A DNA stretch of 64,000 nucleotides from Eledone cirrhosa (Eukaryota), in assembly GCA_964016885.1 (NCBI GenBank), contig CAXHJY010001472.1:186001-250000 (forward strand), in the 5' to 3' direction. Below the pieces are notes generated by a model. That model was not told the DNA's origin, made no database searches, and saw only the letters and a list, made by a program, of their open reading frames with translations. Position 1 is the first letter of the stretch; every line of letters begins with the position of its first letter. The position numbers and the translations under genes were made by a program. This document shows positions 1 to 59,886 of the stretch, in pieces.

Positions 1-133
1 CCAACTCTGAAGTTTTGGATTGCGTTTGGAGGTTGGGAGCGGTGGGGAGCGGGGATGGGGTTAGGGTTAGCCATCCGCGGCCGAAACAAAGAGGAGGAGC
101 CCTTGCATTCTCGTCCATGAGGTGGATTTGTCT
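1..133 (-). mobile_element. 5' part of bipartite RTE-derived element (cut by window start)
   Basis: Same as 5913-6045 apart from one SNP. Minus strand reads [24 protein letters not shown], leading into the APE domain. Confidence 0.7.
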
Positions 134-134
134 T

Positions 135-624
135 TATGTATGTATATGTATATATGTATGTATGTGTGTGTATGTATGTATATGTATATATGAGTGTATA
201 TGTGTATATGTATGTATATGTATGTGTATGTATGTGTATATATGTGTATATGTATGTGTTTGTATATATGTGTGTGTATGTATATATGTGTGTGTACGTA
301 TATATATATATGTATGTATGTGTATATGTATGTATATGTATGTATGTGTATGTATATGTGTGTATGTATGTGTATATATGTATGTATGTATATGTATATA
401 TACGTGTGTATATGTATATATACTTATGTGTATATGCTTATGTATGTGTATGTATGTATATTTATATTATGTATATATATATATCTATGTATGTGTATGT
501 ATGTATATATATGTATGTATATGTGTATGTATGTGTATGTATGTATGTATGTGTATATATGTATGTATGTATATATATATGTATGTATATGTATATGTAT
601 GTGTATGTATATGTATATGTATAT
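135..624. repeat. Compound (TATG/TA/TG)n microsatellite, present in every short unit with variable length
   Basis: Directly visible. It produces the spurious YVCM/IHTY ORFs. Confidence 0.97.
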
Positions 625-978
625 GGAGGCACATGGCTTAGTGGTTCGAGCATTGGCCTGGCAATCGAAAGGTTGTGAGTTCAATTCTCAGACCGGGTGA
701 TGTGTTGTTTCCTTGAGCAAGACACTTTATTTCACATTGCTCCAGTTTACTCAGCTGTAGAAATGAGATGATAGGGACTGGGGTCCATATCATTCCACTG
801 CAAAGTGGTCGTGGAGGTGCCACGGCAAAAAAGCACTCAGCACTCACTGTAAATGAGGTTGGTGTTAGGAAGGGCATCCAGCTGTAGAAATCAAGCCAGA
901 ATCAGTTCCCGTCCCACATTTGCAAGCAGGGAAAAAGCGGACTTAAAACGAAATGATGATGATGATGATGATGATGAT
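625..978 (+). mobile_element. tRNA-derived CORE-type SINE with RTE-like 3' tail and (GAT)n end
   Basis: A box tggcttagtgg, B box gagttcaattc, MIR/CORE-like ccttgagcaagacactt...cagtttactcagctgtagaaatgag. Tail ggttggtgttaggaagggcatccagctgtagaaa is shared with the RTE at 42563-44490. Confidence 0.85.
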
Positions 979-1030
979 GTATGTATGTATGTGTATATGT
1001 ATGTATGTATGTATATGTATGTATGTGTAT

Positions 1031-1166
1031 GAGATGCAGTTTGGTTTTGTGCCGCTGAAAAGTGCAACAGATGCCCTCTTCTTAGTGAGACAACTACAAA
1101 AGAGGTTCTTAGAGAAAAATAAGCCACTATACTTAGCTTTGGACATAGAGAAGGCTTTTGATAGAG
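1031..1166 (+). pseudogene. Short RTE-LINE reverse transcriptase fragment (one per unit; 5'-clipped at 46438 and 56244)
   Basis: EMQFGFVPLKSATDALFLVRQLQKRFLEKNKPLYLALDIEKAFDR aligns by eye with the RT in ORF 43352-44608. Confidence 0.9.
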
Positions 1167-1254
1167 AACTCTTATAAATGACAACATATATATATGTGTG
1201 TGTATATATATGTTTTTTTTAAAACTATATATTTATTACTCCCTTAAGCAGAAG

Positions 1255-1550
1255 AAATATATTCCCAGATATCGAAGATTACCACAATAACTAGGGAGCG
1301 GAAATCAATAGATGCTGGACATTGCTGCTGAGGGTAGGATGACCTGATGAGCTGGCTCCTGTGGTTGATACCTAAACATAGTAAGAGCCAAGTGGGATGA
1401 CTGAGGTTCACCTACATACATCAGATGTCTCTGGATCTCCAGCTGGAGATTAATGATCTCAGGAATGCCATGAAAAATCGTGACATCTAAAAAAGAAGAG
1501 TAGAATTGTTCTGGCCAATCCACCTGACCTAATAAACAATAATAATATTA
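1255..1550 (+). pseudogene. Decayed 3' end of an RTE-type LINE ORF with (AAT)-rich tail (one per unit)
   Basis: Manual translation across stops and frameshifts gives KITTITRERKSIDAGHC..DLMSWLLWLIPKHSKSQVG*LRFTYIHQMSLDLQLEINDLRNAMKNRDI*KRRV. This resembles the RTE C-terminal AGHC..W.P...G....TY.....L..AM.DR..W pattern. Confidence 0.7.
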
Positions 1551-1631
1551 ATATATATTGATGAAAATTAATTATGGTGAAATATCTTAGAAATCATTCT
1601 CAGAGGTTTTGTATTGTAATCCACACTTGCT

Positions 1632-3598
1632 CCTTGTGGCTTCTGATGCAGACATCATGTCCGCCATCAGGTCCTTCCCAGCTAGCAGCTGCGGAGATGT
1701 TGATGGTCTCTGACCAGGCCTCCTCAAGGAGTTGATATCTCCCCTCTCCGCTGAGGCCGGGCGCCGCCTTCTGAGTGCAATTGTGGCGCTCACCAATAGG
1801 CTCATCCATGGCGCCCTGGACTCTTATGCTCGAGGCCTCTTTTTTTCGGCCAGCCTCACCGCTCTCAGGAAGAAAGAGGATGGCATACGCCCCATTGCTG
1901 TGGGCAATGTCTTCCGGAGGCTGGCTGCCAAGGTAATCTGCAAGTCCGTAACACTCGGAACCGGCATCCAGGGCCTCCAGCCACCTCATTGTCAAGTTTG
2001 ACATGAGGAATGCCTTCAACTCTTTACGCTGGGATCATCTGCTCGAGGCCTGCCTCAGCCGAGCCCCCTCTGCCTACCTGTCATATGGAGCCCCAAGCAT
2101 GCGCCATGCTGCTGATACGGTCATACCCTTGGCTACTGGGATCCAACAGGGCAACCCTTTGGGACCCCTCCTGTTCACCCTTGGTATTGACCACATCGCC
2201 TGGAGTATAACGGCCCCTCTCAACGTTTGGTATCTGGATGATGCTACTTTGGGTGGGCCCGTACAGGCGGTCTGCCATGACCTTCAATCGGTGGTTCCTG
2301 CCCTGGCGGGAATCGACCTCCAGGTCAACTCAGCCAAGTCGGAGGTGGTGAATGTCAGCCTCGATGCTGCAAGCTTTGCAGTCTCCGTCTTGGACGTGCG
2401 GTCCATTCTCCGCCAGGTTCAGGTGACCCCCCAAAGAGGATGCCCTCACCGATCCACCCGCCGGCCATCCGCTCCTCCATCAAGTCCAGACTCTCACGAG
2501 CCGACTGGGCTTGATTGATGGCCACCCAGTTCTCTTTCTGCTGAGGAACTGCTACGCCATGCCGAAGCTCCTCTATACACTCTGTGCTACACCTAAACTT
2601 GTATCCGAGCAGCAGCCGATGAGATATGCAACTTTACCTGTCAGGTATGGCGGCCTTCGCCTCCAGTCCCCGATCTCACTAGCTTTGCCGGCATATCTTT
2701 CGTCGGTAACCTCGTACCACGTCCTCTTCAGCAGGGTTCTTCAAAACACAACAGAACCCTCTGTGTTCAGAGAACGCGTGGCCGCCTGTGAGACGTGGGA
2801 CCGGCTGGGACTTAGCCCAGTAGACGTTCCTCCTCCTTCTCCCCCTGTTGACGTCAAGTCCCCCCCAACACACTTGGGATGCCATCCAGTGCAGCCTGGC
2901 CTCAGACAGGCTCACGTGCCAGCTCGACCAGCACCGCCTTGTTTGTTTTCGTGCAGCCTCCAAACCCCACAGTGGGGCCTGGCTCCATGCCCTGCCCTCC
3001 TTCTCCACTCGCACGCAGCTAGACAACAATAGCTTGCGCATCGGCGTTTCCCTGAGGCTCGGCCTCACACCAATGTCGCTGCCGTTCCACCATGGACTCT
3101 TTCGGCCTCCACCCGCAATCCACGCCATGCTGCCCTCAACGAAGTCATTAAGCATGGCTTGGACGCTGCAGGCTTCCCTTCCCAGCTCGAGGGGACGGCA
3201 AAAGGCTAGATGGCATGACCATCTTCCCGTTCCGCGGTGGCAAACCCCTCGTCTGGGATGCCACTTGCACCGACACTTTCTGCAGCCGCAACCTGGTGCA
3301 GTCTGCGACTGGCCCAGGTTCTGCTGCACGTCAGGCTGAGGGGGCCAAACTCCTCACATATCGTTCACTCTCCGACAGGTTTGCGGTCGTACCCCTGGAA
3401 GTGGAGACTTCTGGTGTCCTCGGCCCCAGGGCTACCTCCTTACTCACCACCATAGGCGCTGAGCTGGCCAGCCGCAGGTGTGAGCCCCGCGAGTTGGAGT
3501 GGCTTTTCCAGCGCGTCTCCCTTGCCGTGCTCCGGGGAAACGCCTTCTCCATTCTGTCCGCCGGGGCTGTGGGTGGGTCCCATCGCGTACCGTTATGA
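1632..3598 (+). mobile_element. CRE-clade non-LTR retrotransposon, 5'-truncated and frameshifted (copy 1, type A)
   Basis: RT motifs AIRSFPASS..DGL, GIRPIAVGNVFRRLAAK, KFDMRNAFNS, GIQQGNPLGPLLF, WYLDD, ATLPVRYGGL, SGAWL. REL endonuclease motifs RHAALNEVI, KRLDG, LVWDATCTDT, AEGAK, VETSG. Contains stops, frameshifts and internal deletions. Confidence 0.88.
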
Positions 3599-4242
3599 AT
3601 GTATACAAAACAACTAAATCTCTTAAATAACTTCACTTATATCCAAAACATGATTTGTATATACATCAACAGTGACTCATTATTATACGCCAGTCACGAC
3701 CCCACTGCAAAAACGATATCTATATAACAACCCCACCGTAAAACTACTCTTCCCCACTTTACAAACACTTTATATTATTTGTCATTAAGGTTTCTTAAAA
3801 TAAATATATATACGTATGTGTAGTAATTAGTACGGAGACTGAGAGAGAAGGGGCGAGTGTGTCTTCATGGAGGGCACATGGGACCAGCAAAGCCCTAAAA
3901 GTAGAGACCAGTAAATGAGATAAGGTCCTAGCTATGTTAAGAATATAAATAAGAAACATGTTCTATACATTTAAGAAGACAAGAGAAACATGTTCTAAAC
4001 ATTTAAGAAATAATTATTTACCTCTTTCATGTCGGTAATATAGCGGTGTTATAAAACTAATTATAACGACCGGTGTTAAAATAGAGAGAGATAGACAGAT
4101 AAATGTGTGTCACACTCTCACCCTCTCTTTAAATCTTTTACACTATCTAACTCGTACTTCTCACACTCTCTTTAAATCTTTTACTCTATCTACCTCTCAT
4201 TTCTATCTGTGTATGTATGTATGTATCTGTCTATGTGTAACT

Positions 4243-4290
4243 CGGTGTACTGGAGCAATATGAAGTGAAGTGTCTTGCTCAAGAAGACAT
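4243..4290 (-). mobile_element. Inverted fragment of the SINE CORE domain (one per complete unit)
   Basis: Reverse complement cttgagcaagacacttcacttcatattgctccagt matches about 712-746. Confidence 0.75.
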
Positions 4291-4593
4291 TTTGTGGAGT
4301 TATATCATCGTTTCTTGTTATAAAGCTACTTATACTACCGGCGTAACAGTGGCTATAGGTGATAGATGTAGAAATAAAAGGCTGTAACAGCGATATAAAT
4401 ATAGATGAAATAGTTTACCACGAGACTAAGAATGAATGTTTAATGGAATTAAGTGTAATCTAATAGGAAATAAGAGGCTAGAGCAGCGAAATGTTTACGT
4501 AAAATAAAAGAACAACAAACAAGAGTGCAACATTGAAATTTTTTTTTTTTTTTTGTCGATATAAGCGTTATTTTATGCGCGATTTGCCTTGCT

Positions 4594-4706
4594 GCCGGCG
4601 CTGCTCAGTCAGTAGCAGCCCCGCTTACGAACTTCAGGAGCCAACGACTTTACATGGTTCGAATCTCACCCTCTCCGCTCTTGTCGAGTTATCTCCTACT
4701 CTTTTT
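4594..4706 (+). ncRNA. Candidate Pol III small RNA gene (tRNA-like or vault-like promoter layout), copy 1
   Basis: TATAAG at 4560, A-box-like GCTCAGTCAGTAG, B box GGTTCGAATC at 4656-4665, TTTTT at 4702-4706. 5' hairpin GCTGCT/AGCAGC. No cloverleaf. Confidence 0.45.
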
Positions 4707-4752
4707 ACTTAGTTCCAGGTCATTAAAATAGAGCAAAGAGGGCGCGGCGATC

Positions 4753-4929
4753 GGCATATGCACTGGCTACAATGTTGAACTTTGGTACTGACTGCGTAGT
4801 TGAACGTTCCACATACCAACCGCCCAACTGGCCAGTCAACCGCATATGCGGCTGGCTGGCCGGTTGGGTAGTTGGCATATGTACTGGCTACCATGCTGAA
4901 CATTGTACTGACTGTCAAGTTGAACGTTC
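4753..4929. repeat. 60-bp palindrome (4816-4875) between ~57-bp imperfect direct repeats (4753-4809, 4874-4929)
   Basis: Arms ccaaccgcccaactggccagtcaaccgcat / atgcggctggctggccggttgggtagttgg. The palindrome also starts at about 10676, 16585, 22442, 28432, 34420, 40428, 50202 and 59997. Confidence 0.9.
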
Positions 4930-5373
4930 TAACCCTCTCTTTACATCTATTACTCTATCTACCGCTTATTTCTCCCCCTCTCTTTACTTCTATAACTCTA
5001 TCTCCCACTCTCTTTACATCTATTACAGTGTCTCCCTGTATATATACACGTATATATGCACTAGATTTTATAAGAAATCTACGTAATAATATAATTAACA
5101 ATAGTTGATGAATTAGACCAGAGTTAATTAAACAATAAATATGAATGAAATAGCAGTAGATGGCGAAACTTGAGTGTTGTGTGTGCATACATATATATGA
5201 GGTAAACTGGTTCAAATACTGTCAGGATTATATTGGATCAAAGACTGTATTAAATAGAAAGTAAAAAATGAAGTGAAAATATAAAAACAAACTGAAAATT
5301 TCCCCATCCCTAGAAAAATTCATATCTTGTTATATATAGATAATTGGCGCTTTAAATTGAATAAATATTCATT

Positions 5374-5447
5374 TATATATATATATATATGTATATATAT
5401 ATGTACACTGATATATATGTGTGTATATATATATGTGTATATATATA

Positions 5448-5496
<49 letters not shown>
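5374..5496. repeat. (TA)n microsatellite, length-variable between units
   Basis: Directly visible. Confidence 0.95.
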
Positions 5497-5498
<2 letters not shown>

Positions 5499-6045
5499 AC
5501 TTCATCATACGTCCGCTTTTCCATGCTTGCAAGGGTGGGGTGGGAGCTGATTCTGGATTGGTTTCTACAGCTGGGTGCCCTTCCTGACGCCAACCCCGTT
5601 TGCAGTGAGTGCTGGGTGCTTTTTTTTTTCCGTGGCACCTCCACGTCAGCTTTACAGTGTGGGCTGGGTGCTTTTTTGCCGCGGCGCCTCCACGACCACT
5701 TTGCGGTGGGGTGGTGGGGTGGTATGTGTATACCCAGCCCATTGTCATTTGCCACACAGAAAAGCTTATAGCATCGTTCTTTACCCACGATGAATCTAGC
5801 AGACCCACCCCTCCACCTGGTCTCTTGAATACAACAAACATCGACCTCCTTACGTTCAAGCATTTCTACAACCTCGTTAGAGCCACCCTATAAGGTGCCT
5901 ACATTAATGGTACCAACTCTGAAGTTTTGGATTGCGTTTGGAGGTTGGGAGCGGTGGGGAGCGGGGATGGGGTTAGGGTTAGCCATCCGCGGCCGAAACA
6001 AAGAGGAGGAGCCCTTGCATTCTCGTCCATGAGGTGGATTTGTCT
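5497..6045 (-). mobile_element. Bipartite non-autonomous RTE derivative (5' end and APE N-terminus fused to RTE 3' tail)
   Basis: [43 protein letters not shown] is an APE start. It joins near 5725 to a tail homologous to the SINE and LINE tails. Confidence 0.8.
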
Positions 6046-10453: not shown

Positions 10454-10566
10454 GCCGGCGCTGCTCAGTCAGTAGCAGCCCCGCTTACGAACTTCAGGAG
10501 CCAACGACTTTACATGGTTCGAATCTCACCCTCTCCGCTCTTGTCGAGTTATCTCCTACTCTTTTT
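10454..10566 (+). ncRNA. Candidate Pol III small RNA, copy 2
   Basis: Matches 4594-4706. Confidence 0.45.
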
Positions 10567-16363: not shown

Positions 16364-16475
16364 GCGGCGCTGCTCAGTCAGTAGCAGCCCCGCTTACGAA
16401 CTTCAGGAGCCAACGACTTTACATGGTTCGAATCTCACCCTCTCCGCTCTTGTCGAGTTATCTCCTACTCTTTTT
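16364..16475 (+). ncRNA. Candidate Pol III small RNA, copy 3 (1-nt deletion at 5' end)
   Basis: gcggcgctgctcag...ggttcgaatc...ttttt. Confidence 0.45.
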
Positions 16476-22219: not shown

Positions 22220-22332
22220 GCCGGCGTTGCTCAGTCAGTAGCAGCCCCGCTTACGAAGTTCAGGAGCCAACGACTTTACATGGTTCGAATCTCACCCTCT
22301 CCGCTCTTGTCGAGTTATCTCCTACTCTTTTT
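22220..22332 (+). ncRNA. Candidate Pol III small RNA, copy 4
   Basis: Variant gccggcgttgctcag; boxes and terminator intact. Confidence 0.45.
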
Positions 22333-28209: not shown

Positions 28210-28322
28210 GCCGGCGTTGCTCAGTCAGTAGCAGCCCCGCTTACGAAGTTCAGGAGCCAACGACTTTACATGGTTCGAATCTCACCCTCTCCGCTCTTGT
28301 CGAGTTATCTCCTACTCTTTTT
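28210..28322 (+). ncRNA. Candidate Pol III small RNA, copy 5
   Basis: As copy 4. Confidence 0.45.
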
Positions 28323-34197: not shown

Positions 34198-34310
34198 GCC
34201 GGCGTTGCTCAGTCAGTAGCAGCCCCGCTTACGAAGTTCAGGAGCCAACGACTTTACATGGTTCGAATCTCACCCTCTCCGCTCTTGTCGAGTTATCTCC
34301 TACTCTTTTT
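34198..34310 (+). ncRNA. Candidate Pol III small RNA, copy 6
   Basis: As copy 4. Confidence 0.45.
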
Positions 34311-40205: not shown

Positions 40206-40318
40206 GCCGGCGTTGCTCAGTCAGTAGCAGCCCCGCTTACGAAGTTCAGGAGCCAACGACTTTACATGGTTCGAATCTCACCCTCTCCGCTCTTGTCGAG
40301 TTATCTCCTACTCTTTTT
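40206..40318 (+). ncRNA. Candidate Pol III small RNA, copy 7
   Basis: As copy 4. Confidence 0.45.
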
Positions 40319-41417: not shown

Positions 41418-42560
41418 GTGGTTTCACTAAAATAAAAATTAAATTAAATTAAATTAAATTAATTATATTAGATAAATAGACATTGGGGTTCTCACCAAAG
41501 ATTTTCAGTTATTTCTAAGAGATGTAAAAGGAAAATTAAAAAAAGATTAATAGGACACATTAGACATGTCTCCAAGCAAGAATTGAACTTACAGACAAGG
41601 ATCTCACCATCTCTGGTACTTCCCACTAAGCCACCAAGACTGCTACAAAGGTCTATTGAAAATTAATATTTATAAACCTACTTTCAAAATATAACTAATT
41701 TAATTAAAAATAAAATAAAATAAATAGACATTGGCGTTCTCACAAAACTTTTTCAGTTCTTTTTTCTAAGAAATGTCAAAGGAATATATATATATATATA
41801 TTTTATTTTTAATTTTATTTTGAAAGTAGGTTTATAAATATTAAATTTCAGTACATCTTTGTATCAGTCTCGGTAGCTTAGTGGGAAGTACCAGAGATGG
41901 TGAGATCCTGTTCTGGGTGTTCAATCCTGGTCTGAGGGTTGAATTGGGGACTCAGGTTCAATCCTGGTCCATGAGATACATGTAAGGTGTCATGTTAATC
42001 TTTTATAATTTTCTTTCTATATCTCTTTGAAAAAGAGAACCCCTATTTATTTAATTATATTGAATTTAATTTTTTATTTTAGTTAAATTGTCGAAAACAC
42101 TGAAGATCTAAAGGTTGAGGAGACAATATGTCTATTTTATCTGTCTCCTCTAACTTTAGATCACCAGTGGTTTTGACAATTTAACTAAAGTAAAATAAAA
42201 TAAAATTAATTAAATTATATTAGATAAATAGACATTGGGGTTCTCACCAAAGATTTTCAGTTTTTTCTGAGGAAAATTTAAAAAAAGATTAACAGGACAC
42301 ATTACAGCAATGATTGAACTCCCAGACCAGGATTGAACCTACAGACAAGGACCTCACCATCTCTGGTACTTCCCACTAAGCCGCCAAGACTGCTACAAAG
42401 GTCTGCTGATAATTAATATTTATAATTTCAAAATAAAATTAATGTTATTAATTTTATTTAAAAATAAAATAAAATAAATAAACATTGGGGTTCTCACAAA
42501 ACTTTTTCATTTTTTTTCTAAGAAATGTCAAAGGAATATATATATATATATATATATATA
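41418..42560. repeat. Direct-inverted-direct triplication of an AT-rich unit with a tRNA-like (A/B box) core
   Basis: Core gcttagtgggaagtaccagagatggtgag..cct..gttcaat on minus at about 41581-41645, plus at about 41865-41970 and minus at about 42312-42392. Fold-back junction at 42078-42189. Confidence 0.85.
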
Positions 42561-42562
42561 TA

Positions 42563-44490
42563 TCATCATCATCATCATCATCATCGTTTAACGTCCATAT
42601 TCCACGCTTGCATGGGTTTGGACGGGAATTTTCCCACTTGAGGCAAGAGTGGTTGTCTTGCTCGCATAGGACTGTCTGGCGGGTTTTCTACAGCTGGATG
42701 CCCTTCCTAACACCAACCGCATTTACAGTGTGGGACTGGGAGGTTTTTACCGTGTTACCTACACGGCCACATTACTGCGTGGACTGTGTTTTTTTTTTTT
42801 GTCGTGACACCTACACGACCTCATTTGTTTCGGCCTGGATGTTGTGGCACCAACATAACTTTACATTGAAAGGGGCGGTGTGGATGGGGTGGGGGTGTAT
42901 TTTGTTAGAGGTGCCTACTGACTGTAGTAGGTTTTACTTTGTATCTAGGTAAGGCGGGTCTTCTCTATTACTGAGTACCGCCAAAGATCTCGGTCCAGTG
43001 ACATTGTCTTGGAGAGGTGTAAGTGTGTGAGGTCGGAATTTATCAAGTCGTCCCAGGTTTTTCTGGGTCTGCCTACTCCGTGGCTACCGTCTATCTTTAT
43101 TGCCCTGCATTTTTTTTATACAGCTGTCGTCTTTCATCCGCATCACGTGGACCATACCAACGTAGTCTTCTCTCGAGTACACAACATCTGATCCCTCTTA
43201 TTTCTAATTTTTCCCTTAGTTCGTTTATGCTTTGCCGTTCACATATATTACTATTACACATCCAGCGAAGCATGCAAGCTTCGTTCCTCTCTAGTCTGCG
43301 TATATCCTCTGCACACAATGCCCAGGTCTCACTGCCATGCAACATTGCTGTTCATATGCAGGCATCATACAACCTGCCTTTCATTTTTAGGGAGAACCCT
43401 TTAGCGGCTAATAGTGGTATAAGCTCTCTGAACTTTTTCCATCCAGTTCTGACTCTAGCTACTGTACTTTCAGAGCACCCTCCCCCACTGCTGATTTTGT
43501 CACCCAGGTAACGGAAGCTGTCCACTATTTCTATAGAACCCTCTGCGCAATTGAAAGAGCTAGTATTTTGTGGGCACTTGCTGCTACTTATTGCACCAGA
43601 GCACCGGCCACATGTAAAATCTATGTTCTTAGTTAGCTTACCTGTGATCCCACTACATCTTTTATGAACCCATACTTTGCATTTGGGACATAAAATGGAG
43701 TTTCTACCTACGCCTTTCCTACACACTGAGCATGGCCATTTCCCGGAAGGGACCGGCGCCTTATTTTCTTTCCTACAAACTAGAACTTTAGTCTTAGCCA
43801 GGTTAATTTTAAGGCCTTCTGATTCTAGGCCTTGCTTCCATGTTTGGAATTTCTTCTCTAGCTCGGCCATTGATTCAGCTATGAGCGTTAGATCATCTGC
43901 GTATAGGAGTTCCCATGGGCAGCCGGTCTTGAACTCCACTGTTATAGCCTGAAGGGCAATAATAAATAGTAGGGGGCTAAGGACGGAGCCCTGATGAACA
44001 CCAACTTTTACGCTAAACTCTTCACTATATTCGTTGTTAATTCTAACCTTGCTGACTGTTTCTTTATACATGGCTCGTATAGCTCTCACAAGCCATTCCT
44101 CAACACCTAGTTTTCTAAGAGCCCACCAGATAATGGAACGGGGGACTCTGTCGAAGGCTTTCTCCAAGTCAACAAAAGCTAAGTATAGGGGTTTACTTTT
44201 AACTAGGTACTTCTCCTGTAGTTGTCGTACAATGAAAAGAGCGTCTGTGGTACTTTTACCTGACACAAACCCGAACTGCATTTCATCTAGATCAATTCTC
44301 TCTCTGATTAGTTGCGCTATTACTTTTTCCGTGACCTTCATGACCTGGTCGATTAATTTAATGCCTCTATAGTTACTCCTATCTAGGGCATCTCCTTTAC
44401 CCTTGTAACAGTTAATGATGATGCTGCTACGCCAGTCCTTCAGAACAACCCCATTCTGTATGACTTGGTTTACTATCCGGGTGACCATTA
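42563..44490 (-). mobile_element. 5'-truncated RTE-clade LINE (RT, PHD-like finger, C-terminus, 3' UTR, (GAT)n tail)
   Basis: ORF 43352-44608 has NYRGIKL, QFGF, FVDLEKAFDRVP, GVHQGSVLSPLLF, LLYADD, CSVC..CPKC..WVHKRC..CGRC and FRYLG. ORF 43097-43345 has MLHGSETW..RRLRWYG. Confidence 0.95.
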
Positions 44491-45282
44491 CGTGTATACA
44501 TCTGAAAATGTATATATGTATGCAAAGATATAAGTAAACATACATGTATACATATAGATGGACAGTTATGCATATACAATAACTTATTTCTATACATACA
44601 TATACCACAAGTAAGGCATGGTGCTGCCAACTAACCAGACCTCCCTCATAATGGACCAGCTAGATCCCAAAATACAGGCCTGCTTGCCAACACACAGTCC
44701 CAATAAGTGTAAGTTACAGCGCAGCTATCTGGACAGACTTGTCTTAAGACTACACACTATCCCACTACATCTTTTGTATACTATATATATACTGTTTATA
44801 TATATATATACTATATATATATATACTGTTTATATATATATACACACATATAATTGTGTATTCACACATTATCTTAGTAATGAAATAATTAATAATTTTA
44901 GTAAATTGTTCAAAATTCTTCATTAACCCTTTTGGTAGAAACCCAGCCAAAATTAGTTCTCGTACTATGGAAATGGTTCCTATCTAAATTAAAGTCTTAC
45001 AACAAAATTCTATATAACAACCATATGGTAAGTTACTATGTTAGTAATTAACTAACAATTGTGATAAATAGCTCAAAATTATTCATAATTAATTGAATTA
45101 TAAGGTTCATAATTATAATAAAATCTTCAAATAGGCTACGAAACCGGTAAACCTGAAAGGTACACAACACACACACATTGCTATAGCGTTTCACCAGCCC
45201 CTTCCTTCCTGAATTATTACAGAGATGTGTGTGTATGTAATAATTATTTGTATAATGTGTGTCTATTTATGAATATGTATGA

Positions 45283-46040
45283 GTAGATGTGTGTGTGTGT
45301 ATCACAGTAGATGTGTATGTAACACAGTAGATGTGTATATGTAACAGAGTAGATGTGTGTTTGCATGTAACTCAGTATATGTGTATGTAACTCAGTAGAT
45401 GTGTGTGTGTAACACGGTAGATGTGTGTGCGTAACACGGTAGATGTGTGTGTGTAACACGGTAGATGTGTGTGTGTAACACGGTAGATGTGTGTATGTAA
45501 CAGTAGATGTGTATGTATGTAACACAGTAGATGTGTATGTATGTAACACAGTAGATGTGTGTATGTAACACAGTAGATGTGTGTATGTAACACAGTACAT
45601 GTGTGTGTATGTAACTCAGTAGATGTGTGTGTATGTAACTCAGTAGATGTGTGTATGTAACACAGTAGATTGTGTGTATGTAACATAGAAGATGTGTGTA
45701 ACACAGTAGATGTGTGTGTATGTAACACAGTAGATCTGTGTGTATGTAACTCAGTAGATGTGTGTGTATGTAACACAGGTGTGTGTATGTAACACAGTAG
45801 ATGTGTGTATGTAACATAGTAGATGTGTGTATGTAACACAGAAGATGTGTGTGTATGTAACACAGTAGATGTGTGTGTATGTAACTCAGTAGATGTGTGT
45901 GTATGTAACACAGTAGATGTGTGTGTAACACAGTAGATGTGTATGTAACGCAGTAGATGTGTGTGTATGTAACCCAGTTGATGTGTGTGTATGTAACACA
46001 GTAGATGTGTGTATGTAACATAGTATATGTGTATGTAACT
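45283..46040. repeat. ~20-22 bp minisatellite (GTAACACAGTAGATGTGTGTAT)n
   Basis: Directly visible; source of the HTHLLCY ORFs. Confidence 0.95.
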
Positions 46041-46173
46041 AAAGTGTAACGTACGTTACAAATGGACGACAAAATGATTTTAACTTGTTTTTTAACAATT
46101 GATGGTGGAAAAGATTTTAAATTGTCTTAACTCAGACCATAAAGGGCCGCAACACATGGAGTCTGACACTCTT

Positions 46174-46257
46174 ACCGGCTACATAGCCTGGGCGTCTATT
46201 TTACCGCGACCGGCTACATAGCCTGGGCGTCTATTTTACCGCGACCGGCTACATAGC
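46174..46257. repeat. 35-bp tandem repeat, about 2.4 copies (about 1.4 copies near 56015)
   Basis: accggctacatagcctgggcgtctattttaccgcg starts at 46174, 46209 and, partially, 46244. Confidence 0.9.
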
Positions 46258-47018
46258 ATCTTCCTAAAATCTTCCAACATAATTTTATACAAGAACCACA
46301 TGTTAAGTTACTAATAAAATAATTAATAAATAAAAACATTAGTAAGTCCTTCAAATGATATCTCAGTAATGAAATAATTAATAATTGTTATAAATACCTC
46401 AAAATTCCTCATTAATTAAACCTCATTAATTAATTAAGCCGCTGAAAAGTGCAACAGATGCCCTCTTCTTAGTGAGACAACTACAAAAGAGGTTCTTAGA
46501 GAAAAATAAGCCACTATACTTAGCTTTGGACATAGAGAAGGCTTTTGATAGAGAACTCTTATAAATGACAACATATATATATGTGTGTGTATATATATGT
46601 TTTTTTTTAAACTATATATTTATTACTCCCTTAAGCAGAAGAAATATATTCCCAGATATCGAAGATTACCACAATAACTAGGGAGCGGAAATCAATAGAT
46701 GCTGGACATTGCTGCTGAGGGTAGGATGACCTGATGAGCTGGCTCCTGTGGTGGATACCTAAACATAGTAAGAGCCTAGTGGGATGACTGAGGTTCACCT
46801 ACATACATCAGATGTCTCTGGATCTCCAGCTGGAGATTAATGATCTCAGGAATGCCATGAAAAATCGTGACATCTAAAAAAGAAGAGTAGAATTGTTCTG
46901 GCCAATCCACCTGACCTAATAAACAATAATAATATTAATATATATTGATGAAAATTAATTATGGTGAAATATCTTAGAAATCATTCTCAGAGGTTTTGTA
47001 TTGTAATCCACACTTGCT

Positions 47019-49979: not shown

Positions 49980-50092
49980 GCCGGCGCTGCTCAGTCAGTA
50001 ACAGCCCCGCTTACGAACTTCAGGAGCCAACGACTTTACATGGTTCGAATCTCACCCTCTCCGCTCTTGTCGAGTTATCTCCTACTCTTTTT
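49980..50092 (+). ncRNA. Candidate Pol III small RNA, copy 8
   Basis: Boxes intact; one substitution (agtaacagc) weakens the 5' hairpin. Confidence 0.42.
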
Positions 50093-51235: not shown

Positions 51236-52385
51236 GTGGTTTCACTAAAATAAAAATTAAATTAAATTAAATTAAATTAATTATATTAGATAAATAGACA
51301 TTGGGGTTCTCACCAAAGATTTTCAGTTATTTCTAAGAGATGTAAAAGGAAAATTAAAAAAAGATTAATAGGACACATTAGACATGTCTCCAAGCAAGAA
51401 TTGAACTTACAGACAAGGATCTCACCATCTCTGGTACTTCCCACTAAGCCACCAAGACTGCTACAAAGGTCTATTGAAAATTAATATTTATAAACCTACT
51501 TTCAAAATATAACTAATTTAATTAAAAATAAAATAAAATAAATAGACATTGGCGTTCTCACAAAACTTTTTCAGTTCTTTTTTCTAAGAAATGTCAAAGG
51601 AATATATATATATATATATTTTATTTTTAATTTTATTTTGAAAGTAGGTTTATAAATATTAAATTTCAGTACATCTTTGTATCAGTCTCGGTAGCTTAGT
51701 GGGAAGTACCAGAGATGGTGAGATCCTGTTCTGGGTGTTCAATCCTGGTCTGAGGGTTGAATTGGGGACTCAGGTTCAATCCTGGTCCATGAGATACATG
51801 TAAGGTGTCATGTTAATCTTTTATAATTTTCTTTCTATATCTCTTTGAAAAAGAGAACCCCTATTTATTTAATTATATTGAATTTAATTTTTTATTTTAG
51901 TTAAATTGTCGAAAACACTGAAGATCTAAAGGTTGAGGAGACAATATGTCAATTTTATCTGTCTCCTCGAACTTTAGATCACCAGTGGTTTTGACAATTT
52001 AACTAAAGTAAAATAAAATAAAATAAATTAAATTATATTAGATAAATAGACATTGGGGTTCTCACCAAAGATTTTCAGTTTTTTCTGAGGAAAATTTAAA
52101 AAAAGATTAACAGGACACATTACAGCAATGATTGAACTCCCAGACCAGGATTGAACCTACAGACAAGGACCTCACCATCTCTGGTACTTCCCACTAAGCC
52201 GCCAAGACTGCTACAAAGGTCTGCTGATAATTAATATTTATAAACCTAATTTCAAAATAAAATTAATGTTATTAATTTTATTTAAAAATAAAATAAAATA
52301 AATAAACATTGGGGTTCTCACAAAACTTTTTCATTTTTTTTCTAAGAAATGTCAAAGGAATATATATATATATATATATATATAT
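51236..52385. repeat. Direct-inverted-direct triplication, second copy
   Basis: Matches 41418-42560; fold-back at 51896-52007. Confidence 0.85.
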
Positions 52386-52386
52386 C

Positions 52387-54315
52387 TCATCATCATCATC
52401 ATCATCATCGTTTAACGTCCATATTCCACGCTTGCATGGGTTTGGACGGGAATTTTCCCACTTGAGGCAAGAGTGGTTGTCTTGCTCGCATAGGACTGTC
52501 TGGCGGGTTTTCTACAGCTGGATGCCCTTCCTAACACCAACCGCATTTACAGTGTGGGACTGAGAGGTTTTTACCGTGTTACCTACACGGCCACATTACT
52601 GCGTGGACTGTGTTTTTTTTTTTTGTCGTGACACCTACACGACCTCATTTGTTTCGGCCTGGATGTTGTGGCACCAACATAACTTTACATTGAAAGGGGC
52701 GGTGTGGATGGGGTGGGGGTGTATTTTGTTAGAGGTGCCTACTGACTGTAGTAGGTTTTACTTTGTATCTAGGTAAGGCGGGTCTTCTCTATTACTGAGT
52801 ACCGCCAAAGATCTCGGTCCAGTGACATTGTCTTGGAGAGGTGTAAGTGTGTGAGGTCGGAATTTATCAAGTCGTCCCAGGTTTTTCTGGGTCTGCCTAC
52901 TCCGTGGCTACCGTCTATCTTTATTGCCCTGCATTTTTTTTATACAGCTGTCGTCTTTCATCCGCATCACGTGGACCATACCAACGTAGTCTTCTCTCGA
53001 GTACACAACATCTGATCCCTCTTATTTCTAATTTTTCCCTTAGTTCGTTTATGCTTTGCCGTTCACATATATTACTATTACACATCCAGCGAAGCATGCA
53101 AGCTTCGTTCCTCTCTAGTCTGCGTATATCCTCTGCACACAATGCCCAGGTCTCACTGCCATGCAACATTGCTGTTCATATGCAGGCATCATACAACCTG
53201 CCTTTCATTTTTAGGGAGAACCCTTTAGCGGCTAATAGTGGTATAAGCTCTCTGAACTTTTTCCATCCAGTTCTGACTCTAGCTACTGTACTTTCAGAGC
53301 ACCCTCCCCCACTGCTGATTTTGTCACCCAGGTAACGGAAGCTGTCCACTATTTCTATAGAACCCTCTGCGCAATTGAAAGAGCTAGTATTTTGTGGGCA
53401 CTTGCTGCTACTTATTGCACCAGAGCACCGGCCACATGTAAAATCTATGTTCTTAGTTAGCTTACCTGTGATCCCACTACATCTTTTATGAACCCATACT
53501 TTGCATTTGGGACATAAAATGGAGTTTCTACCTACGCCTTTCCTACACACTGAGCATGGCCATTTCCCGGAAGGGACCGGCGCCTTATTTTCTTTCCTAC
53601 AAACTAGAACTTTAGTCTTAGCCAGGTTAATTTTAAGGCCTTCTGATTCTAGGCCTTGCTTCCATGTTTGGAATTTCTTCTCTAGCTCGGCCATTGATTC
53701 AGCTATGAGCGTTAGATCATCTGCGTATAGGAGTTCCCATGGGCAGCCGGTCTTGAACTCCACTGTTATAGCCTGAAGGGCAATAATAAATAGTAGGGGG
53801 CTAAGGACGGAGCCCTGATGAACACCAACTTTTACGCTAAACTCTTCACTATATTCGTTGTTAATTCTAACCTTGCTGACTGTTTCTTTATACATGGCTC
53901 GTATAGCTCTCACAAGCCATTCCTCAACACCTAGTTTTCTAAGAGCCCACCAGATAATGGAACGGGGGGACTCTGTCGAAGGCTTTCTCCAAGTCAACAA
54001 AAGCTAAGTATAGGGGTTTACTTTTAACTAGGTACTTCTCCTGTAGTTGTCGTACAATGAAAAGAGCGTCTGTGGTACTTTTACCTGACACAAACCCGAA
54101 CTGCATTTCATCTAGATCAATTCTCTCTCTGATTAGTTGCGCTATTACTTTTTCCGTGACCTTCATGACCTGGTCGATTAATTTAATGCCTCTATAGTTA
54201 CTCCTATCTAGGGCATCTCCTTTACCCTTGTAACAGTTAATGATGATGCTGCTACGCCAGTCCTTCAGAACAACCCCATTCTGTATGACTTGGTTTACTA
54301 TCCGGGTGACCATTA
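52387..54315 (-). mobile_element. 5'-truncated RTE-clade LINE, second copy with an extra frameshift
   Basis: RT is split into ORFs 53939-54433 and 53176-54000 by one extra G near 53965. Confidence 0.95.
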
Positions 54316-55142
54316 CGTGTATACATCTGAAAATGTATATATGTATGCAAAGATATAAGTAAACATACATGTATACATATAGATGGACAGTTATGCATAT
54401 ACAATAACTTATTTCTATACATACATATACCACAAGTAAGGCATGGTGCTGCCAACTAACCAGACCTCCCTCATAATGGACCAGCTAGATCCCAAAATAC
54501 AGGCCTGCTTGCCAACACACAGTCCCAATAAGTGTAAGTTACAGCGCAGCTATCTGGACAGACTTGTCTTAAGACTACACACTATCCCACTACATCTTTT
54601 GTATACTATATATATACTGTTTATATATATATATACTATATATATATATACTGTTTATATATATATATACTATATATATATATATACTGTTTATATATAT
54701 ATACACACATATAATTGTGTATTCACACATTATCTTAGTAATGAAATAATTAATAATTTTAGTAAATTGTTCAAAATTCTTCATTAACCCTTTTGGTAGA
54801 AACCCAGCCAAAATTAGTTCTCGTACTATGGAAATGGTTCCTATCTAAATTAAAGTCTTCCAACAAAATTCTATATAACAACCATATGGTAAGTTACTAT
54901 GTTAGTAATTAACTAACAATTGTGATAAATAGCTCAAAATTATTCATAATTAATTGAATTATAAGGTTCATAATTATAATAAAATCTTCAAATAGGCTAC
55001 GAAACCGGTAAACCTGAAAGGTACACAACACACACACATTGCTATAGCGTTTCACCAGCCCCTTCCTTCCTGAATTATTACAGAGATGTGTGTGTATGTA
55101 ATAATTATTTGTATAATGTGTGTCTATTTATGAATATGTATG

Positions 55143-55880
55143 AGTAGATGTGTGTGTGTGTATCACAGTAGATGTGTATGTAACACAGTAGATGTGTATA
55201 TGTAACAGAGTAGATGTGTGTTTGCATGTAACTCAGTATATGTGTATGTAACTCAGTAGATGTGTGTGTGTAACACGGTAGATGTGTGTGTGTAACACGG
55301 TAGATGTGTGTGTGTAGCACGGTAGATGTGTGTATGTAACAGTAGATGTGTATGTATGTAACACAGTAGATGTGTATGTATGTAACACAGTAGATGTGTA
55401 TGTATGTAACACAGTAGATGTGTGTATGTAACACAGTACATGTGTGTGTATGTAACTCAGTAGATGTGTGTGTATGTAACTCAGTAGATGTGTGTATGTA
55501 ACACAGTAGATTGTGTGTATGTAACATAGAAGATGTGTGTAACACAGTAGATGTGTGTGTATGTAACACAGTAGATCTGTGTGTATGTAACTCAGTAGAT
55601 GTGTGTGTATGTAACACAGGTGTGTGTATGTAACACAGTAGATGTGTGTATGTAACATAGTAGATGTGTGTATGTAACACAGAAGATGTGTGTGTATGTA
55701 ACACAGTAGATGTGTGTGTATGTAACTCAGTAGATGTGTGTGTATGTAACACAGTAGATGTGTGTGTAACACAGTAGATGTGTATGTAACGCAGTAGATG
55801 TGTGTGTATATAACCCAGTTGATGTGTGTGTATGTAACACAGTAGATGTGTGTATGTAACATAGTATATGTGTATGTAAC
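55143..55880. repeat. ~20-22 bp minisatellite, second copy
   Basis: Matches 45283-46040, slightly shorter. Confidence 0.95.
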
Positions 55881-56824
55881 TAAAGTGTAACGTACGTTAC
55901 AAATGGACGACAAAATGATTTTAACTTGTTTTTTAACAATTGATGGTGGAAAAGATTTTAAATTGTCTTAACTCAGACCATAAAGGGCCGCAACACATGG
56001 AGTCTGACACTCTTACTGGCTACATAGCCTGGGCGTCTATTTTACCGCGACCGGCTACATAGCATCTTCCTAAAATCTTCCAACATAATTTTATACAAGA
56101 ACCACATGTTAAGTTACTAATAAAATAATTAATAAATAAAAACATTAGTAAGTCCTTCAAATGATATCTCAGTAATGAAATAATTAATAATTGTTATAAA
56201 TACCTCAAAATTCCTCATTAATTAAACCTCATTAATTAATTAAGCCGCTGAAAAGTGCAACAGATGCCCTCTTCTTAGTGAGACAACTACAAAAGAGGTT
56301 CTTAGAGAAAAATAAGCCACTATACTTAGCTTTGGACATAGAGAAGGCTTTTGATAGAGAACTCTTATAAATGACAACATATATATATGTGTGTGTATAT
56401 ATATGTTTTTTTTAAAACTATATATTTATTACTCCCTTAAGCAGAAGAAATATATTCCCAGATATCGAAGATTACCACAATAACTAGGGAGCGGAAATCA
56501 ATAGATGCTGGACATTGCTGCTGAGGGTAGGATGACCTGATGAGCTGGCTCCTGTGGTGGATACCTAAACATAGTAAGACCCAAGTGGGATGACTGAGGT
56601 TCACCTACATACATCAGATGTCTCTGGATCTCCAGCTGGAGATTAATGATCTCAGGAATGCCATGAAAAATCGTGACATCTAAAAAAGAAGAGTAGAATT
56701 GTTCTGGCCAATCCACCTGACCTAATAAACAATAATAATATTAATATATATTGATGAAAATTAATTATGGTGAAATATCTTAGAAATCATTCTCAGAGGT
56801 TTTGTATTGTAATCCACACTTGCT

Positions 56825-59773: not shown

Positions 59774-59886
59774 GCCGGCGTTGCTCAGTCAGTAGCAGCC
59801 CCGCTTACGAACTTCAGGAGCCAACGACTTTACATGGTTCGAATCTCACCCTCTCCGCTCTTGTCGAGTTATCTCCTACTCTTTTT
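59774..59886 (+). ncRNA. Candidate Pol III small RNA, copy 9
   Basis: Boxes and terminator intact. Confidence 0.45.

What the first reader, a model, noticed from the sequence alone, without database searches (positions are those of the whole stretch)
4560..4706. Unrecognised Pol III small-RNA cassette repeated once per unit: possible payload of the array
Seen: TATAAG lies about 31-34 nt upstream of GCCGGCG(C/T)TGCTCAGTCAGTAGCAGC. A textbook B box GGTTCGAATC is at 4656 and a TTTTT terminator at 4702. This layout is kept in all 9 complete units. By tRNA numbering the body would be 84 nt (4594-4677), but the acceptor, anticodon and T stems do not pair. The 5' end instead folds as GCTGCT/AGCAGC, extendable to about 10 bp with one mismatch, and the common C>T variant becomes a tolerated G-U pair. 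No SINE core or LINE tail follows. Established: upstream TATA plus internal A/B boxes plus oligo-T in a ~100-nt unit is the layout of vault RNAs and similar Pol III genes, and small-RNA genes often sit in homogenised multi-kb tandem arrays (5S, U2). Inference: this is a novel ~113-nt Pol III RNA gene array (vault-like or tRNA-derived) whose spacer is TE debris.
Basis: partly seen in the sequence, partly recalled or inferred. Interest (0 to 1): 0.75.

Follow-up and report, generated by a model that had tools for sequence, protein, structure and literature searches.

The report
tRNA-like relic in chromosome-end repeats
A short stretch with the promoter signals of a transfer-RNA gene sits once in each unit of a DNA repeat that has about 320 copies, many near chromosome ends; it is likely a decayed passenger rather than a vault RNA gene or the reason for the array, though it might still be copied into a small RNA.

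Summary
The motifs are real: TATAAG 4560, A-box-like 4601-4612, B box 4656 and T5 4702, in all 9 cassettes of the window. The full layout arose in 7 of 2000 shuffled units, and the body aligns with this genome's tRNAs. The 5.9-kb unit has about 322 copies; the arrays examined lie mostly about 100 kb from chromosome ends, in blocks shared between chromosomes. It is not a vault RNA: Rfam Vault does not match it but matches 14 places in another cluster (C3). It is not a dispersed SINE head: copies travel with their flanks. Nothing marks it as the payload. Across 20 diverged copies the body changes as fast as its flanks (4.13 vs 4.18 per 100 cells), there is no shared fold, and the hairpin is intact in 7 of 17. 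In the arrays it is among the most variable parts, and 50 of 72 copies have lost the tRNA T8. A neighbouring 3.4-kb array is homogenised without any RNA gene. Best reading (0.6): a tRNA-derived Pol III relic carried by a subtelomeric macrosatellite. An intact B box and T5 leave a 4.5SH-like RNA open (0.2). Expression is untested.

The parts
4594..4706 (+). tRNA-derived Pol III cassette body (predicted 113-nt transcript if transcribed from 4594 to the T5)
   Evidence: start site inferred from tRNA numbering
4539..4554 (+). T16 tract upstream of the TATA-like box (variable; interrupted in older copies)
4560..4565 (+). TATA-like box TATAAG, starting 34 nt upstream of 4594
   Evidence: invariant in 72 of 72 array copies, 12 of 14 solitary copies
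4601..4612 (+). Imperfect A box (tRNA D-arm relic); T8 replaced by C in 50 of 72 array copies
4656..4666 (+). B box GGTTCGAATCT
   Evidence: invariant in 72 of 72 array copies; damaged in 5 of 19 diverged paralogues (read by eye)
4702..4706 (+). T5, candidate Pol III terminator, inside a conserved block 4688-4723 that weakly resembles the antisense tail of an old dispersed repeat
   Evidence: invariant in 20 of 20 diverged copies and 86 of 86 unit copies; tail likeness
4707..4755 (+). Downstream GC-rich block shared by all 19 diverged paralogues and at least as conserved as the body
4756..4925 (.). Direct/inverted repeat block that replaces the older downstream arm in the 5.9-kb unit
4072..4330 (+). 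Relic of the older module: 43-bp TC-rich minisatellite, microsatellite and a SINE fragment; a second minisatellite relic lies at 4927-5037
52..5911 (+). One 5.86-kb macrosatellite unit (phase chosen here)
625..975 (+). tRNA-headed SINE copy with (ATG)n tail, a second A/B-box pair in the unit; absent from the 9.8-kb variant units
   Evidence: same head dispersed in other loci
1601..3591 (+). Broken non-LTR retrotransposon relic (Pfam RVT_1 at 1952-2515); 'CRE-like' is a recalled label from its C-terminal motif and comes from no call
   Evidence: high-copy family in run X3
10454..10566 (+). Cassette copy 2
16364..16475 (+). Cassette copy 3 (1-nt deletion in the first 7 bases)
22220..22332 (+). 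Cassette copy 4 (T allele)
28210..28322 (+). Cassette copy 5 (T allele)
34198..34310 (+). Cassette copy 6 (T allele)
40206..40318 (+). Cassette copy 7 (T allele)
49980..50092 (+). Cassette copy 8 (AACAGC, hairpin broken)
59774..59886 (+). Cassette copy 9 (T allele)
41418..46437 (.). About 5-kb segment of LINE and simple-repeat debris that replaces about 1.07 kb of the unit in the 9.8-kb variant; second copy at about 51236-56243

Best explanation
The cassette has the A-box, B-box and T-run layout of a tRNA gene but no cloverleaf, and it is likely a decayed tRNA-derived promoter that rides as a passenger in a 5.9-kb repeat amplified to about 320 copies, many in arrays near chromosome ends. Shown: the layout, the copy number, the position about 100 kb from telomere repeats on several chromosomes, older 86-95% identical copies that share the flanks, and no excess conservation or shared fold. 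Inferred history: a tRNA gene or SINE head (parent uncertain; tRNA-Sec is a weak hint) decayed inside an old patchwork of minisatellites. One such module was taken, with LINE and SINE debris, into a 5.9-kb unit. Unequal crossing-over and exchange between chromosome ends then amplified and homogenised the whole unit. Predicted activity: the intact B box likely still binds TFIIIC, and some copies would give an unstructured RNA of about 110 nt that ends at the T5, without a selected function.
For: tRNA origin: alignment to an own-genome tRNA-like gene scores 40, against a shuffle maximum of 29 of 300 and 37 of 500; full layout in 7 of 2000 shuffles. Spread as DNA: both halves give 322 places at 3 or fewer mismatches; 11 of 11 solitary places checked lie in 1.5-5.9 kb of unit sequence; 16 of 19 diverged paralogues share the upstream flank and 19 of 19 the downstream block. 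Chromosome ends: telomere repeats at the ends of C5, C6, C9, C13, C19 and near the start of the window's contig; distal blocks up to 98-99% identical among C6, C8, C9, C13, C19, C1499. No selection seen: body 4.13 vs outside 4.18 changes per 100 cells, p 0.48; A+B boxes p 0.24; all four motifs p 0.09, circular-shift p 0.20. In 72 array copies the body differs 1.03% from consensus; only 2 of 13 flanking segments are more variable (range 0.12-1.47%). Alignment fold -0.6 kcal/mol; hairpin intact in 7 of 17, one two-sided change. A neighbouring 3.4-3.65-kb array is about 99% identical between chromosomes with no Rfam hit and no A/B layout.
Against: T5 is invariant in 20 of 20 diverged copies. TATAAG, B box and T5 (22 nt) are invariant in 72 of 72 array copies, where about 2-4 variable sites would be expected (hand estimate, chance about 0.03-0.1). 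Motif columns change less than the rest (2.9 vs 4.3 per 100 cells); a first run that held non-homologous flanks and a duplicated row gave p 0.016. The cassette survived the turnover from the old module to the new array, as did its flanks. Most paralogues may be dead copies, which would hide selection on a few active ones. Lineage-specific Pol III RNAs in 4-5 kb tandem repeats exist (4.5SH RNA, PMC10137851).
Confidence: 0.6

Rival explanations
1. A working lineage-specific Pol III RNA gene family like rodent 4.5SH RNA or ape snaR: hundreds of genes, each in a multi-kb tandem unit with TE debris as spacer, making an RNA of about 113 nt, and selection for dosage helps keep the array.
For: TATA-like box, B box and T5 intact in 72 of 72 array copies; T5 invariant in 20 of 20 diverged copies; the layout matches 4.5SH genes (boxes A and B, TATA-like box at -31/-24, hundreds of copies each in a 4-5 kb tandem repeat; PMC10137851 passages) and snaR arrays (PMC3045588 passages).
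Against: Body no more conserved than flanks; no shared fold; T8 lost in 50 of 72 array copies; conservation runs on past the T5; an adjacent array needs no RNA gene.
Confidence: 0.2
2. A DNA element: the B box binds TFIIIC without useful transcription and acts as a repeated chromatin boundary or nuclear-periphery tether in the subtelomere, like yeast ETC/COC sites.
For: The B box is the best-kept promoter part (72 of 72; 2.3 changes per 100 cells) while the A box decays; the large arrays sit about 100 kb from telomeres and all point inward; B-box sites bind TFIIIC and act as boundaries in yeasts (PMC3395662 passages).
Against: [quoted passage not shown]
Confidence: 0.1
3. Head of a SINE family that is or was dispersed by retroposition; the array holds one copy.
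For: tRNA-like head without cloverleaf; 3 of 19 paralogues begin at or near the A box without the upstream flank; SINE-derived satellites prefer subtelomeres (PMC10702118 abstract and Discussion).
Against: Only 322 close copies for each half; of the first 100 of 271 A..B pattern hits listed, all but one carry the array spacer, and that one shares the flanks; copies share untranscribed upstream DNA; an internal T5 would stop Pol III; two of the three head-starting copies abut a LINE fragment and no target-site duplication was seen by eye. An extinct, more diverged SINE parent is not excluded.
Confidence: 0.05
4. The motifs are a chance alignment of short words in repeat debris.
For: A+B pair alone arises in 28% of shuffled units; the rule was set after the fact; no Rfam or ARAGORN hit.
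Against: Full layout in 7 of 2000 shuffles; z about 5 for alignment to tRNAs; the older T allele is closer to the tRNA A box.
Confidence: 0.03
5. It is the vault RNA gene array of this animal.
For: TATA + internal boxes + T-run and a length near 100 nt.
Against: No Vault match at E up to 10 for the cassette or six paralogue loci; no terminal stem; 14 over-threshold Vault matches lie in a separate cluster on C3, and the cassette aligns to one of them worse than its shuffles (16 vs mean 21).
Confidence: 0.02

Closest known systems
Rodent 4.5SH RNA genes (PMC10137851, passages read)
   Same: Type-2 promoter with A and B boxes, TATA-like box near -30, T-run terminator, hundreds of copies each in a 4-5 kb tandem repeat.
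   Different: 4.5SH derives from 7SL/B1, is an abundant RNA with a reported function and is shared across rodent families. This element is tRNA-derived and subtelomeric, with no expression data and no sign of selection.
Great-ape snaR genes (PMC3045588, passages read)
   Same: Young Pol III element spread by segmental duplication into tandem arrays, with older dispersed relatives.
   Different: snaR is Alu-derived, about 30 genes, shown to be expressed; its ancestors spread by retrotransposition, whereas the older copies here share DNA flanks.
SINE-derived satellites of squamates (PMC10702118, abstract and Discussion read)
   Same: Pol III-derived sequence caught in homogenised tandem repeats with a subtelomeric bias and no known function.
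   Different: Those units are parts of an abundant SINE; here the cassette is 2% of a 5.9-kb composite unit and no parent SINE family was found.
ETC/COC TFIIIC sites of yeasts (PMC3395662, passages read)
   Same: A B box kept without a proper tRNA gene.
   Different: ETC sites are single, conserved between species and shown to bind TFIIIC; binding here is untested.
Vault RNA (Rfam RF00006)
   Same: TATA-like box, internal boxes, T-run, about 100 nt.
   Different: No model match and no terminal stem; the matching genes of this genome are elsewhere.

Membership tests
Vault RNA (RF00006) | Score above the Rfam gathering threshold (34 bits) | tested here: not met
   No hit at E up to 10 on 4450-4850 or six paralogue loci; positive control: 14 hits over threshold on C3
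Vault RNA (RF00006) | Terminal stem joining 5' and 3' ends | tested here: not met
   Absent in folds of the cassette; present in both C3 candidates folded
Vault RNA (RF00006) | Association with the vault particle | not testable with these tools
   Needs a major vault protein pull-down
tRNA gene | Cloverleaf (acceptor, D, anticodon, T stems) | tested here: not met
   ARAGORN 0 genes and Rfam 0 hits; acceptor intact in 0 of 16, T stem in 0 of 20 copies
tRNA gene | A and B boxes at tRNA-like spacing | tested here: met
   B box exact; A box with 2-3 mismatches of 8; spacing 56 nt, longer than in standard tRNAs
tRNA-Sec derivative | Similarity to tRNA-Sec outside the boxes | tested here: inconclusive
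   Best of 36 tRNA sequences with boxes held fixed: 4 of 1000 shuffles, uncorrected; only Sec, Ser, Leu, Thr, Ile and one tRNA-like repeat family were sampled; no shared upstream element seen by eye. Intact tRNA-Sec genes lie on C23
tRNA-derived SINE | Many dispersed copies with unrelated flanks | tested here: not met
   322 close copies; 11 of 11 solitary ones in unit context; 16 of 19 paralogues share the upstream flank. Search scores only the top 40, so old flank-free copies may be missed
tRNA-derived SINE | No internal terminator; body and tail read through, target-site duplications | tested here: not met
   T5 46 nt after the start of the B box in all copies; no TSD seen by eye in three head-starting copies
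4.5SH/snaR-type Pol III RNA gene array | Type-2 promoter, TATA-like box and terminator, one per multi-kb tandem unit, many copies | tested here: met
4.5SH/snaR-type Pol III RNA gene array | A discrete abundant transcript | not testable with these tools
   No RNA run was available to lay
4.5SH/snaR-type Pol III RNA gene array | Gene better conserved than its spacer | tested here: not met
   Within this genome only; no related species could be searched
Subtelomeric macrosatellite / shared subtelomeric duplication | Tandem arrays near telomere repeats on several chromosomes, highly identical between them | tested here: met
   interstitial copies also exist (C7, C11, C18)
ETC/COC TFIIIC boundary site | TFIIIC bound without Pol III; boundary activity | not testable with these tools
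   Needs ChIP or CUT&Tag

The most novel reading that the evidence does not exclude
This animal has independently evolved a 4.5SH-like system: a tRNA-derived (perhaps tRNA-Sec-derived) Pol III RNA of about 113 nt, encoded by some 320 genes in inward-pointing arrays at many chromosome ends, the first such array outside mammals in the papers searched. Either the RNA or the several hundred TFIIIC sites would help organise subtelomeric chromatin.
Probability: 0.2. Interest if true: 0.65.

Novelty: new member of a known kind. Interest (0 to 1): 0.3.

Why it matters
If it is a passenger, it is an ordinary but clear case of how a dead Pol III promoter is multiplied several hundredfold at chromosome ends, and the shared end structure is useful annotation for this genome. 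If it is transcribed and used, it would be an invertebrate parallel to 4.5SH RNA and snaR, and one Northern blot or small-RNA library would show it. The side result, a tandem cluster of Vault-model genes on C3, gives a direct candidate for this animal's vault RNA.

Tried and rejected
Rfam at gathering threshold on the window and ARAGORN: 0 hits; relaxed ARAGORN gave only noise and never called the cassette in the part printed. Rfam at E up to 10 on the cassette and six paralogue loci: nothing relevant. Sequencing runs: no RNA holder listed among 15 runs, which says nothing on expression. Contigs of five runs were laid on 3600-5370 and 1235-3620. Runs under other organism labels held near-identical pieces of the cassette and also of other parts of the unit, so they cannot show cassette-only conservation, and holes prove nothing. 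A first parsimony run gave p 0.016 for the motifs but held non-homologous flanks and a duplicated row; the cleaned run gave p 0.09. The alignment fold still held one duplicated row (21 rows). tRNA-Sec as parent: weak hint only. Terminator as the antisense tail of an old dispersed repeat: 2 look-alikes in 1.15 Mb of fetched loci, but the motif has only 2 and 10 exact matches in the genome and likeness stops after about 28 nt, so this is left open. Earlier scan notes: nothing near this place or like this sequence. Literature searches listed no paper describing this element, a cephalopod subtelomeric macrosatellite or an octopus vault RNA; the library lacks most subscription journals, and no supplements were read. 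No eukaryote relatives are held for genome search, so the cross-species test could not be run.

Full report
Observation. The B box occurs nine times, all exact and on +, spaced about 5.9 kb six times and about 9.8 kb twice; the units are 95-100% identical over the long aligned stretches. ARAGORN and Rfam at gathering threshold find nothing in the window, and Rfam at E up to 10 finds nothing relevant on the cassette. As the nine copies are one event, I tested one unit. B box + A box (3 or fewer mismatches of 8) + TATA[AT] + T5 arose in 7 of 2000 block-shuffled units; A+B alone arose in 28% and A+B+T5 in 2.1% of 1500. The rule was set after seeing the cassette, and the stricter TATA[AT][AT] is not met by it. 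The predicted fold is no better than shuffles (z -1.19, 24 of 200).

What it descends from. The body aligns with this genome's own tRNA-like genes mainly at the A box and T arm: score 40 against a shuffle maximum of 29 of 300 and 37 of 500, and z about 5 globally. It has no cloverleaf: acceptor stem fully paired in 0 of 16 and T stem in 0 of 20 copies. With both boxes held fixed, tRNA-Sec was the best of 36 tRNA sequences (4 of 1000 shuffles, uncorrected), but only five tRNA types and one tRNA-like family were sampled, so this is a hint. Intact tRNA-Sec genes lie on C23.

Where it lies. An exact 21-mer has 235 places in the 3.0-Gb genome, and each half of the cassette has 322 places at 3 or fewer mismatches; only the first 100 places of each search were listed. 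Most listed places form arrays near contig ends: + strand at the left ends of C8, C9, C19 and C1499, - strand at the right ends of C6, C10 and C13. Telomere repeats were seen at the ends of C5, C6, C9, C13 and C19 and at about 9-18 kb of the window's contig, and arrays begin about 90-125 kb in. The DNA between telomere and array is up to 98-99% identical among C6, C8, C9, C13, C19 and C1499. Interstitial arrays or copies also exist (C7, C11, C18). The rest of the unit is debris: a SINE at 625-975, a broken reverse-transcriptase element at 1601-3591 (RVT_1, E 2e-10), LINE fragments and simple repeats. The genome is probably an octopus according to an earlier AI note (e1-8664148), which I did not test.

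Not a dispersed SINE head. All 11 solitary places checked lie in 1.5-5.9 kb of unit sequence. A pattern of A box, free spacer and B box gave 271 places; of the 100 listed, one had a different spacer. That copy, on C9, shares 4516-4755 with the unit and runs into the same 43-bp minisatellite. Two searches from such copies (top 40 scored each) gave 19 paralogues that are 86-95% identical over 4602-4706. I took these 19 of the 30 loci and left out near-identical unit copies and repeats of the same place. Sixteen share the upstream flank with the TATA-like box, and all 19 share the downstream block. They sit in a patchwork of minisatellites, once as a tandem pair. Copies that carry untranscribed flanks were duplicated as DNA (inference). 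Older flank-free copies below the top 40 could have been missed.

Not vault RNA. The Vault model does not match the cassette or six paralogue loci. It matches 14 places above its cut-off in one cluster on C3; these have TATA-like boxes, a terminal stem and a T-run. The cassette aligns to one of them worse than its own shuffles.

Is it under selection? In 20 aligned copies, parsimony changes per 100 cells are 4.13 in the body and 4.18 outside (p 0.48). A+B boxes give 3.3 vs 4.2 (p 0.24), and TATA+A+B+T5 give 2.9 vs 4.3 (p 0.09; circular shift 0.20). DNA after the T5 is at least as conserved as the body. An earlier run with non-homologous flanks and a duplicated row gave p 0.016 for the motifs. 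In 72 array copies from tiled stretches the body differs 1.03% from consensus, against 0.12-1.47% for 13 flanking segments, and the RT relic is retained in as many copies (69-73). At 4601, 50 of 72 array copies have C, while 18 of 20 older copies have the tRNA-like T: the array has drifted away from the A-box consensus. The alignment fold is -0.6 kcal/mol (with one duplicated row). The six-pair hairpin is intact in 7 of 17 copies with one two-sided change. Against my reading: T5 never varies in 20 of 20 old and 86 of 86 unit copies, and TATAAG, B box and T5 are invariant in all 72 array copies (hand estimate of chance 0.03-0.1). The B box is damaged in 5 of 19 paralogues (by eye). Dead copies would dilute any signal.

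A control next door. Between telomere and this array lies a 3.4-3.65-kb tandem array, about 99% identical among C6, C9, C13 and C19. It has no Rfam hit and no A/B layout and reads as LINE debris by eye. Arrays at these ends therefore need no RNA payload.

Mechanism. Shown: layout, copy number, position, shared flanks, lack of structure and of excess conservation. Inferred: a tRNA gene or SINE head decayed inside an old minisatellite patchwork; one module entered a 5.9-kb unit, which was amplified by unequal crossing-over and spread by exchange between chromosome ends. Predicted from established Pol III biology: the B box could still bind TFIIIC, and some copies could give an RNA of about 110 nt. 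Confidence 0.6; working RNA gene family 0.2; TFIIIC boundary 0.1; SINE head 0.05; chance 0.03; vault 0.02.

Comparison with what is known. It is built like 4.5SH RNA genes, which have A and B boxes, a TATA-like box at -31/-24 and hundreds of copies each in a 4-5 kb tandem repeat (PMC10137851, passages), and like snaR arrays (PMC3045588, passages). It lacks their evidence of expression. As a passenger it resembles SINE-derived satellites, which favour subtelomeres (PMC10702118, abstract and Discussion). B-box sites that bind TFIIIC alone are known in yeasts (PMC3395662, passages). Vault RNAs are already reported from two lophotrochozoan lineages (PMC2770079, passages). Mollusc SINE superfamilies are listed in PMC4758252 (passages), without a test against their sequences. 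Nine searches listed no description of this element; no supplements were read.

Verdict. It is a new member of a known kind, interest 0.3. Expression and cross-species conservation, the two tests that could raise it, could not be run.

Noticed in passing
G000:C3:221.18-221.25 Mb (L051-L060): Tandem cluster with 14 Rfam Vault matches over the cut-off (34.1-43.3 bits; 14 of 17 matches, only 49 candidates scored). Two alternating types, with TATA-like box near -30, terminal stem and T-run, and no canonical B box by eye. Likely this animal's vault RNA genes. Vault RNAs were already reported in two lophotrochozoan lineages (PMC2770079).
   Followed up: partly
Ends of G000:C5, C6, C8, C9, C10, C13, C19, C1499 (L215-L233, L046, L047): Shared chromosome-end structure: telomere repeats, a shared block, a 3.4-3.65-kb tandem array of LINE-like debris, another shared block, then the 5.9-kb array about 90-125 kb in; up to 98-99% identical between chromosomes.
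   Followed up: partly
G000:C1499:1-18000 (L045, L232): The window's contig starts with about 5 kb of (TTAGGG)n, then 3 kb of a (TAACTT)n-like repeat, then about 9 kb of (CCCTAA)n: telomere repeats head to head, either a fusion or an assembly join.
   Followed up: no
window 3675, run X8: One contig joins telomere repeats directly to unit position 3675, which would fit an array broken and healed by telomere addition.
   Followed up: no
L063, L065-L073 (C1-C5, C28): Dispersed tRNA-like family with an intact cloverleaf, varying anticodons (GGC, GAC, AGC, GGT, GTC) and near-identical flanks on both sides: a tRNA look-alike moved as DNA.
   Followed up: no
G000:C1:441.19-441.23 Mb, C10:51.30-51.33 Mb, C4:316.09-316.13 Mb, C1:243.65-243.68 Mb: True tRNA genes (Ser, Thr) lie in tandem arrays, on C1 with a 1.68-kb period. 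Two identical-scoring tRNA-Sec genes lie on C23, with a TATA box and an octamer-like word upstream.
   Followed up: no
L210, L211, L212, L214 (C28, C18, C1): Older cassette copies sit in a patchwork of 34-, 40-, 43-, 53-, 64/67- and 71-bp minisatellites; on C21 two cassette modules lie in tandem about 830 bp apart.
   Followed up: partly
window 4756-4925: Two 57-bp direct repeats around a palindrome of about 60 bp, found in the 5.9-kb unit but not in the older module; part of it matches the junction of two minisatellites elsewhere.
   Followed up: no
window 41436-42520 and 51254-52340: AT-rich segment of about 1.1 kb with internal direct and inverted repeats in the 9.8-kb variant units.
   Followed up: no
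G000:C1499:430-440 kb (L234): A 25-26 bp satellite fills this stretch just beyond the last cassette match seen at 427 kb.
   Followed up: no
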